Notes under the pieces: generated by a model
What the model saw: only the letters and a program-made list of their open reading frames with translations
What the model was told of the DNA's origin: nothing
Databases searched by the model: none
Part shown: positions 47,639 to 49,429 of the stretch, piece by piece
Layout: each line of letters begins with the position of its first letter
Numbering within the stretch: the stretch's first letter is position 1
NCBI RefSeq assembly: GCF_009914755.1
Contig: NC_060928.1
DNA from: the human T2T-CHM13v2.0 reference genome, Homo sapiens
Length of the DNA stretch: 64,000 nucleotides
Reading direction: 5' to 3' (one strand)
Program-made: the position numbers and the translations under genes

Positions 47639-48716
47639 CTAAAAAGTAAAAAGTGTATACAAATGTTAGCTGATGCTAACATATAATGGTACGATTTTTT
47701 CTTCACTGATTTGTTGTATCCCAAACTTTAAGCCAATCTCTACATATTTATAAAATTTTAAAAACAGTGAAAAACCCCTTCTGTTTTATCGTTTTATTCC
47801 TTCCAAAAATGTTTTCAGATTGGAACATACAGTGTTTTTTTTTTCCTTAGGATCATATATCACTATAACTGAATTCAAATTTTGCCTTTAAAATTTTATT
47901 TTGGAGTTGATTTGTATGAAATGACATGTAAAACTTCATAAGGATTCTAAGTTTGGTCAAGACACATATAATCGCTATTTCAACTACTGATACTTTGCTA
48001 TCTTTTGCTGCAACAAATCTACTGTCTTATTAAAATAAAAATGTACTTCTCCAAACGTACTTGTGCTTAATTTTTTCCAGAGCAAGTTTAAAATATTCAC
48101 TATTAGAAGAGTCTTGATAATGAAACCTCTTTTTCCTCATGGACATGGAAGAAAACTAAAGCTTTACAGGAGACCTGATGAAATGCAGACTCAAGTAAGA
48201 AAAATATTTTAAGGTATAAAGTTTTAAAATATACTTCTTATTCTAGGACAGCTATCATTCATTATGTAACTTCCAACTTGAGAAAAGGTTGGAATCTGGT
48301 TATTCTTCAAGTCCAAGTTAGAAGGAATACTCTGGATATAATAGGTGGAGGTTTAAAAGTTGGCTTAACACCCTTAGGCAACTGCAGACCTGGTCACTGT
48401 CCCATCAGGAATGTTTTGAAGGCCAATAAACCACTCAGCCCCTGCCCTGTCTTTATAAATAATTCTCACCGGCTGTGGAGCAATGCTGGATGTGGCTTTC
48501 AGCTTCACCATGGTTACTTGAGAGCATTCTCAGGTATTGCTTCTATCCAAGCAGCCTTTGCCTCTGTGGGAAACCCCAGTGATATTCTGGGAGAAGTGGC
48601 AAGGGCAGGTAGCATGACCATTCTCTTCTCTGGAAATCTCACTCCCATGCACTTTTCATGCAATCAATCATGAAGAAAAGGTCAACAGACAGCTTTCAAA
48701 TAATGGATTTACTTAC

Positions 48717-48730
48717 CTACTGACACTGAT
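48717..48730 (-). CDS. Candidate 14-nt microexon ATCAGTGTCAGTAG (reading frame unknown)
   Basis: Minus strand: taattgac...ctcctccctttttctccccacaacttcacttctctcgccAG|ATCAGTGTCAGTAG|GTAAGT. Long AG-free pyrimidine tract, consensus donor, and two UGCAUG elements downstream (plus-strand CATGCA at 48646-48651 and 48657-48662). Confidence 0.65.
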
Positions 48731-49429
48731 CTGGCGAGAGAAGTGAAGTTGTGGGGAGAAAAAGGGAGGAGCACAGGAGTCAATTACAGGAAACCTAAAC
48801 CCCTTCAGTCTTCCAGGGAGACCAAACACACTCCAGTAAGCTCCCTCCCCTTGATCACAGGTATCTGCCAAAGCTATTAAGGTAAGTTTACATTGATGTC
48901 CGGTTAGAAGTTGGAGGTATGTATGTGCACATATATAAGATGGGAGCACTGGGGAGGAAAAGATAGATATTAAAGAACTGTCATTCACTGTGGAAATTAA
49001 CAAAAAAGGATAGGCTGTGTTTCAGGGAGGTTAACTGTCTATACATCCTAGGCCATTCAGTGCAGATTTAAATTTCAGGAAACAGTAGGCACATGAGGAT
49101 AAATCCCTCCATCCTTGGAAGACTTAATACACCTTTAGTGTCTGACTCAATAGTAGATGAACTAAAGGTAGTTTGACCAGTAAAACCAATTGACATGGAA
49201 ACTTAATATAAATGATAAAAACGTAGGAGTTTTGTTTTGGGATCAGCCAGTCCTATAACACCCAGTTCACAGAAGTGCTGCAGGATTTTCTTTTTAATAT
49301 TAATAGAACATAAATATTATTTCCATTTTGGTTTCATTCTTAGCACCTTATCATGCCACAACGAATAAATAGTTAGATGGTCTCCAGTTTTGAAGGAGTT
49401 TAAAGTCCTACAAACCTTATTCTACCCAT

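What the first reader, a model, noticed from the sequence alone, without database searches (positions are those of the whole stretch)
48640..48790. 14-nt microexon with tandem RBFOX elements 55-70 nt downstream
Seen on the minus strand: about 45 nt of AG-free pyrimidine tract, CAG acceptor, TAG|GTAAGT donor, then ...ttcatgattgatTGCATGaaaagTGCATGgg, plus YCAY motifs (ccat, tcat). Known: downstream intronic UGCAUG is the position from which RBFOX proteins promote inclusion in neurons and muscle; YCAY clusters are NOVA sites. This co-occurrence is the best single argument that a real regulated exon is here.
Basis: partly seen in the sequence, partly recalled or inferred. Interest (0 to 1): 0.72.

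Follow-up and report, generated by a model that had tools for sequence, protein, structure and literature searches.

The report
Candidate poison microexon in UNC5C intron
A 14-base stretch in the first intron of the nerve-guidance receptor gene UNC5C has splice signals on both sides and two RBFOX binding motifs just downstream; if cells splice it in (untested), it would place a stop signal at codon 46 and likely switch the receptor off.

Summary
The anatomy is as described: a 62-nt AG-free, 79% pyrimidine tract, a CAG acceptor, 14 nt, a near-consensus donor and TGCATG at +55 and +66. It lies 49 kb into the 213-kb, phase-1 first intron of UNC5C. The full combination is rare: 2 sites genome-wide against about 0.12 expected, but the pattern was drawn around this site. 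The RBFOX motifs alone are not enriched over a reversed-hexamer control (9 vs 9; 10 vs 13). The YCAY motifs are at background, and there is no UGC near the acceptor. I found no transcript, protein or list evidence of use (0 of 122 proteins; supplements of six papers, some only in part), and conservation of the motifs could not be tested. The same donor also pairs with good acceptors 232 and 271 nt upstream. Verdict: a plausible, unproven RBFOX-enhanced poison exon (about 0.4); an unused pseudoexon is nearly as likely.

The parts
48717..48730 (-). candidate 14-nt cassette exon; its last three bases are a stop codon in frame with UNC5C exon 1 (codon 46)
48731..48733 (-). CAG acceptor, first AG after the tract
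48733..48794 (-). 62-nt AG-free zone, 79% pyrimidine (75% in the 20 nt before the acceptor)
48779..48783 (-). branch-point-like pentamer, A at 48780 (50 nt before the exon); use inferred
48711..48716 (-). donor GTAAGT, 8 of 9 consensus positions with the exon end; the real donors of exons 1 and 2 match 7 of 9
48657..48662 (-). TGCATG (RBFOX motif) at +55
48646..48651 (-). TGCATG (RBFOX motif) at +66
48717..48725 (-). inner acceptor giving a 9-nt in-frame form (three added residues); only 3 nt after the first AG
48717..48719 (-). inner acceptor giving a 3-nt in-frame form; the exon's final AG abuts the donor (recursive-site-like)
48717..48948 (-). alternative 232-nt exon from an upstream CAG acceptor (80% pyrimidine) to the same donor; frameshift, stop at codon 120 in exon 2
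48717..48987 (-). alternative 271-nt exon from an upstream CAG acceptor (80% pyrimidine) to the same donor; frameshift, stop at codon 133 in exon 2
48670..48706 (-). two isolated YCAY words (+11, +44); at background density, probably not a NOVA cluster

Best explanation
This is likely an unannotated 14-nt cassette exon in UNC5C intron 1 that is usually skipped, whose inclusion would be promoted by RBFOX proteins bound at the two downstream UGCAUG words, and which would end translation at codon 46 and so remove full-length receptor. Shown: the splice-signal anatomy, the motif positions, the phase-1 intron and the in-frame stop. Inferred: that the exon is used, that RBFOX binds there, that PTB-type proteins on the long CU-rich tract repress it elsewhere, and that the transcript is degraded by nonsense-mediated decay. 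The stop lies 222 nt before the next junction, so it meets the 50-nt rule. It is only 138 nt from the start codon, where decay can be weak (recalled). Even without decay the product would be little more than the N-terminal leader, and no in-frame Met follows residue 22 within the first 200 residues.
For: Anatomy. Phase and stop. Donor stronger than the gene's own flanking donors and one of 3 such on the sense strand of the window. The only one of 16 loose candidates with TGCATG downstream; 0 of 300 simulations gave the strict combination. Genome-wide, 747 donor-plus-one-TGCATG matches include 9 with a tandem pair and 10 loci with a microexon-type acceptor, so about 0.12 with both are expected; 2 were found, this site and one in EXOC4. 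TGCATG is over-represented downstream of alternatively spliced human microexons (PMC4317164, passages). A 20-nt neuronal poison microexon in Bak1 is a precedent (PMC10551640, passages).
Against: No evidence of use. 0 of 122 proteins carrying the end of exon 1 continue with this exon in any form; 87 join straight to exon 2, though poison products are seldom held in such databases. Not found in the mouse MicroExonator table of 2,988 rows, the supplements of Li 2015 or an AS-NMD survey whose only Unc5c row is a different, 57-nt in-frame exon. RBFOX motifs are not enriched over reversed-hexamer controls: 9 vs 9 matches for tandem and 10 vs 13 loci for single motif plus acceptor. The genome pattern was tuned on this site, so the independent count is 1 against 0.12, and that EXOC4 twin is not in the mouse table either. 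No UGC within 40 nt of the acceptor. Neuronal microexons are mostly in frame, and out-of-frame ones tend to be the excluded, poorly conserved class (PMC7821500, passages). Conservation of the motifs untested.
Confidence: 0.4

Rival explanations
1. An unused or barely used pseudoexon: a chance meeting of a good tract, a strong donor and two TGCATG words in a 213-kb intron, picked out by a genome-wide scan.
For: No transcript, protein or list evidence. Motif classes not enriched over controls. Loose microexon-like pairs are common, 16 on the sense strand and 7 on the other, and 3 of 300 simulated strands held one with two TGCATG, which over tens of thousands of windows means hundreds by chance. 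14 nt is short for unaided exon definition and there is no UGC enhancer near the acceptor.
Against: The strict combination arose in 0 of 300 simulations and about 0.12 are expected genome-wide. Negative lists are biased against exons that trigger decay.
Confidence: 0.33
2. The donor and the RBFOX sites are real, but the exon used is a 232- or 271-nt cryptic cassette that starts at an upstream acceptor. Both forms shift the frame and stop at the start of exon 2, so the outcome is again a poison exon, with a stop far enough from the start codon for efficient decay.
For: Acceptors at 48948 and 48987 have 80% pyrimidine and are richer in T than the 14-nt acceptor. Exons of this size need no microexon machinery (established knowledge).
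Against: The 14-nt acceptor has the longest AG-free zone among the good acceptors (62 vs 27 and 25) and a branch-point-like word. 0 of 122 proteins continue into these forms. In one unnamed relative (P0163) the homologous frame ends before the tract.
Confidence: 0.12
3. A recursive splice site: the tract, the AGs and the abutting GTAAGT serve stepwise removal of the 213-kb intron, and the 14 nt are a by-product that is rarely kept.
For: AG directly followed by GTAAGT after a pyrimidine tract, in the very long first intron of a neural gene; this is the vertebrate recursive-site layout as I recall it (paper not held).
Against: Three other AGs lie between the tract and the AG that abuts the donor, so the first AG should win. 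Downstream RBFOX motifs are not part of that layout as recalled. No paper holds both UNC5C and recursive splicing.
Confidence: 0.08
4. An in-frame neuronal microexon of 9 or 3 nt from an inner acceptor, adding three residues or one just after the N-terminal leader of UNC5C.
For: Both forms keep the frame open through exon 2. Most neuronal microexons are in frame.
Against: The inner AGs lie 3-4 nt after another AG. 0 of 87 exon 1-exon 2 joined vertebrate proteins carry such an insert; one has an unrelated extra Ala.
Confidence: 0.07

Closest known systems
Bak1 microexon 5 (20-nt neuronal poison microexon; Lin et al. 2020 as described in PMC10551640 and PMC13542418, passages only)
   Same: Out-of-frame microexon with a stop, long pyrimidine tract upstream, host gene with a pro-apoptotic role (UNC5 receptors are dependence receptors, PMC10147378 passages).
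   Different: Bak1 is shown, conserved and controlled by loss of PTBP1; here use and conservation are untested, the proposed activator is RBFOX, and the stop is very close to the start codon.
RBFOX-enhanced alternatively spliced microexons (Li et al. 2015, PMC4317164, passages and supplement search)
   Same: Length under 51 nt, canonical splice sites, TGCATG in the downstream intron, pyrimidine-rich upstream flank.
   Different: Defined by RNA-seq support and conserved flanks, neither shown here; UNC5C is absent from the supplementary lists searched.
NOVA-regulated cryptic NMD exons (Eom et al. 2013, PMC3552424, passages)
   Same: Unannotated intronic exons with premature stops that tune neuronal protein levels.
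   Different: Marked by YCAY clusters and CLIP peaks; YCAY here is at background.
SRRM4/SRRM3-dependent neural microexons (PMC10551640, passages)
   Same: Size range of 3-27 nt (range recalled).
   Different: No UGC within 40 nt of the acceptor; frame-shifting rather than frame-preserving.

Membership tests
RBFOX-enhanced microexon | Canonical AG and GT sites around 51 nt or fewer, with a pyrimidine tract | tested here: met
RBFOX-enhanced microexon | UGCAUG in the proximal downstream intron | tested here: met
   +55 and +66
RBFOX-enhanced microexon | Junction-read support for inclusion | tested here: inconclusive
   No RNA-seq tool; indirect searches negative but biased against decay targets and partly unread
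RBFOX-enhanced microexon | Splice sites and hexamers conserved across mammals | not testable with these tools
   No other vertebrate genome is held; the one homologous stretch found (P0163) covers only about 48970-48800
RBFOX-enhanced microexon | RBFOX CLIP peak or response to RBFOX loss | not testable with these tools
   Papers with the CLIP tables were not held
Poison (AS-NMD) exon | Inclusion gives a stop more than 50 nt before a downstream junction | tested here: met
   Stop at codon 46, 222 nt before the exon 2-3 junction; rule as stated in PMC13078869
Poison (AS-NMD) exon | Isoform rises when decay is blocked | not testable with these tools
   Needs inhibitor or knockdown RNA-seq; the stop is start-proximal, so decay may be partial (recalled)
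SRRM4/SRRM3-dependent microexon | UGC motif close upstream of the acceptor | tested here: not met
   None within 40 nt
SRRM4/SRRM3-dependent microexon | Mostly frame-preserving | tested here: not met
   14 nt from the first AG
NOVA-regulated exon | Cluster of YCAY elements | tested here: not met
   7 in 270 nt against about 4.5 expected, spaced more than 30 nt apart next to the donor
Vertebrate recursive splice site | Tract and first AG directly followed by a donor (recalled definition) | tested here: not met
   The abutting AG is the fourth after the tract
Vertebrate recursive splice site | Saw-tooth nascent-RNA coverage | not testable with these tools
   No read data

The most novel reading that the evidence does not exclude
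A conserved, RBFOX-activated poison microexon switches off the pro-apoptotic netrin receptor UNC5C as neurons mature, a Bak1-like survival switch on an axon-guidance and Alzheimer's-risk gene, with stacked acceptors (14, 9, 3 nt) that could flip the same donor between silencing and in-frame forms. It has been missed because it is tiny, buried in a 213-kb intron and destroyed once used.
Probability: 0.17. Interest if true: 0.72.

Novelty: new member of a known kind. Interest (0 to 1): 0.38.

Why it matters
UNC5 receptors repel axons and trigger cell death when unbound, and UNC5C is a nominated late-onset Alzheimer's risk gene (PMC10147378, passages). A poison exon would give a splicing-level dial on receptor dose and a possible site for splice-switching oligonucleotides or deep-intronic variants. 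The mechanism class is well known, so the value lies in the gene, and only if inclusion is shown.

Tried and rejected
NOVA regulation: YCAY at background. SRRM4-type microexon: no UGC near the acceptor. RNA structure: folding z-score 0.00. Copies or paralogous elements: the 251-nt region matches only itself in the genome. Protein evidence: three homologue searches (best 120 of 615, 4 of 4, 104 of 104 listed) gave 162 distinct proteins, 122 with the end of exon 1, none continuing into the candidate. Conservation through stray ORFs of relatives: one hit (P0163, 58% over 55 residues) covers only the upstream flank; a second (P0164) is a repeat-rich chance-like match. Literature: UNC5C with microexon gave 5 papers, each with one mention of each term, listings only; with poison exon 0; with recursive splicing 0; EXOC4 with microexon 0; other searches listed nothing on this exon. 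Supplements: PMC4317164 (4 of 5 files searched), PMC13078869 (8 files; one table too large), PMC7821500 (8 files; one too large), PMC12868881 (1 file), PMC7935315 (12 of 19 files; of 5 prefix hits in the exon table 2 were shown, both UNC5CL, 3 unseen), PMC5630039 (11 of 27 files). The loose pattern (601 matches) was too broad and not used. A wider background from the rest of intron 1 was not obtained, so the local chance estimate rests on the window and simulations.

Full report
Observation. The YCAY words exist but are at background (7 in 270 nt; 1.66 per 100 nt on this strand). There is no TGC within 40 nt of the acceptor, and no notable RNA fold (z = 0.00).

Context. I fetched the flanking UNC5C exons from the genome and found them by translation. 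Exon 1 ends after 124 coding bases, so intron 1 is phase 1 and about 213 kb long; the candidate lies 49.1 kb after exon 1 and 164 kb before exon 2. In that phase the 14-nt exon completes one codon, adds three more, and ends on a stop: codon 46, 222 nt before the next junction. Two inner AGs give 9-nt and 3-nt forms that stay in frame. Two upstream acceptors with 80% pyrimidine, at 48948 and 48987, give 232- and 271-nt exons with the same donor; both shift the frame and stop at the start of exon 2. The donor matches the consensus (recalled) at 8 of 9 positions, better than the real donors of exons 1 and 2 (7 of 9), and is one of 3 such donors on the sense strand of the window. MaxEntScan-type scores were not computed.

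Is it more than chance? Locally yes. Of 16 loose acceptor-donor pairs on the sense strand (7 on the other), only this one has TGCATG within 150 nt; in 300 simulated strands 3 loose candidates had two TGCATG, 5 passed the strict splice test and none passed both. Genome-wide the picture is mixed. Donor plus tandem TGCATG at this spacing gives 9 matches, and the reversed-hexamer control gives 9 matches at 8 loci. Acceptor, short exon, donor and one hexamer give 10 loci against 13 for the control (three loci appear in both sets and the control holds near-identical copies). So neither half is enriched. Their overlap is small: 747 donor-plus-one-hexamer matches, 1.2% tandem and 1.3% with the acceptor, predict about 0.12 with both; 2 are seen, this site and a 3-nt candidate in EXOC4, and these two have the longest AG-free zones of the 10. 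Because the pattern was drawn around this site, the independent count is 1 against 0.12, which is suggestive only. With a looser acceptor test, 3 of 9 tandem sites and 0 of 8 controls have a good acceptor within 30 nt, and 4 of 9 against 3 of 8 within 51 nt.

Is it used? I found no sign. Three protein searches with exon 1 or exon 2 gave 162 distinct proteins, the first search listing only the best 120 of 615; 122 hold the end of exon 1, 87 of them join exon 2 directly (one with an unrelated extra Ala), and 0 continue into any form of the candidate. This weighs against a common in-frame form, but little against a poison form. The mouse MicroExonator table (2,988 rows) has three entries under the coordinate prefix that covers Unc5c and none at the gene (gene position). 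The supplements of Li 2015 lack UNC5C, and the AS-NMD survey PMC13078869 lists only a different 57-nt in-frame exon. Other supplements were searched in part; unread files, bioRxiv supplements, VastDB, GENCODE and the three other RefSeq transcripts may bear on novelty. Searches for UNC5C with poison exon or recursive splicing returned 0 papers. Three key papers recalled from memory (a survey of new brain exons, the Rbfox CLIP map, the vertebrate recursive-splicing paper) were not held.

Is it conserved? Not testable: no other vertebrate genome is held. A search of 1.84 billion protein representatives with the open frame that spans the acceptor found one unnamed stray ORF, 58% identical over 55 residues, that covers only the flank at about 48970-48800 and ends before the tract. 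It shows the region has a homologue elsewhere and says nothing about the motifs.

Mechanism. The most likely working reading is a poison microexon. The long CU-rich tract and small size would keep it skipped by default (inferred), RBFOX bound downstream would promote it in neurons or muscle (positional rule from PMC10551640 and PMC4317164, passages), and inclusion would stop translation just after the N-terminal leader. The 50-nt rule is met. Decay may be partial because the stop is 138 nt from the start (recalled), but no in-frame Met follows residue 22 within the first 200 residues, so full-length receptor would be lost either way. I put this at 0.40, an unused pseudoexon at 0.33, the longer 232/271-nt poison exon at 0.12, a recursive site at 0.08 and an in-frame form at 0.07.

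Comparison and novelty. It would work like the Bak1 poison microexon and NOVA cryptic NMD exons, with RBFOX as the proposed activator. It fails the tested features of SRRM4-type microexons and NOVA targets. Membership among RBFOX-enhanced microexons is open, because inclusion, binding and conservation could not be tested. If real it is a new member of a known kind in a gene of medical interest. Interest 0.38; one junction look-up and one conservation track would settle most of the doubt.

Noticed in passing
L008 / L029, G000:C7 near 135140717-135140803 (+): A twin of the pattern in an EXOC4 intron (gene named from a nearby exon): 95-nt AG-free zone, TAG acceptor, 3-nt exon, GTAAGT donor, TGCATG at +70 and +77. 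Not found in the mouse MicroExonator table under the recalled Exoc4 position or in papers.
   Followed up: partly
L009, G000:C7 near 149993241-149993340 (-): In EZH2, about 75 nt after a SET-domain exon, a second strong donor is preceded by a TAG acceptor 14 nt upstream and followed by tandem TGCATG; it could be an alternative donor or a 14-nt exon behind a very short intron.
   Followed up: partly
L012, G000:C15 near 52708712-52708820 (-): Donor with tandem TGCATG and a moderate acceptor 33 nt upstream; gene not identified.
   Followed up: no
window 53438-53390 (-): One acceptor followed by three donor-like words 13, 45 and 49 nt on; no TGCATG nearby.
   Followed up: no
P0150 and P0121: P0150, a bat UNC5C model, joins exon 1 to later UNC5C-like sequence, skipping exon 2 in frame. 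P0121 joins exon 1 to a tail that has no clear match in the window or the human genome.
   Followed up: partly
L003, start of UNC5C exon 2 (G000:C4:98650686): Exon 2 opens with two ATG triplets in the frame of the candidate's stop, so a short out-of-frame ORF would start right behind the stop and end inside exon 2.
   Followed up: no
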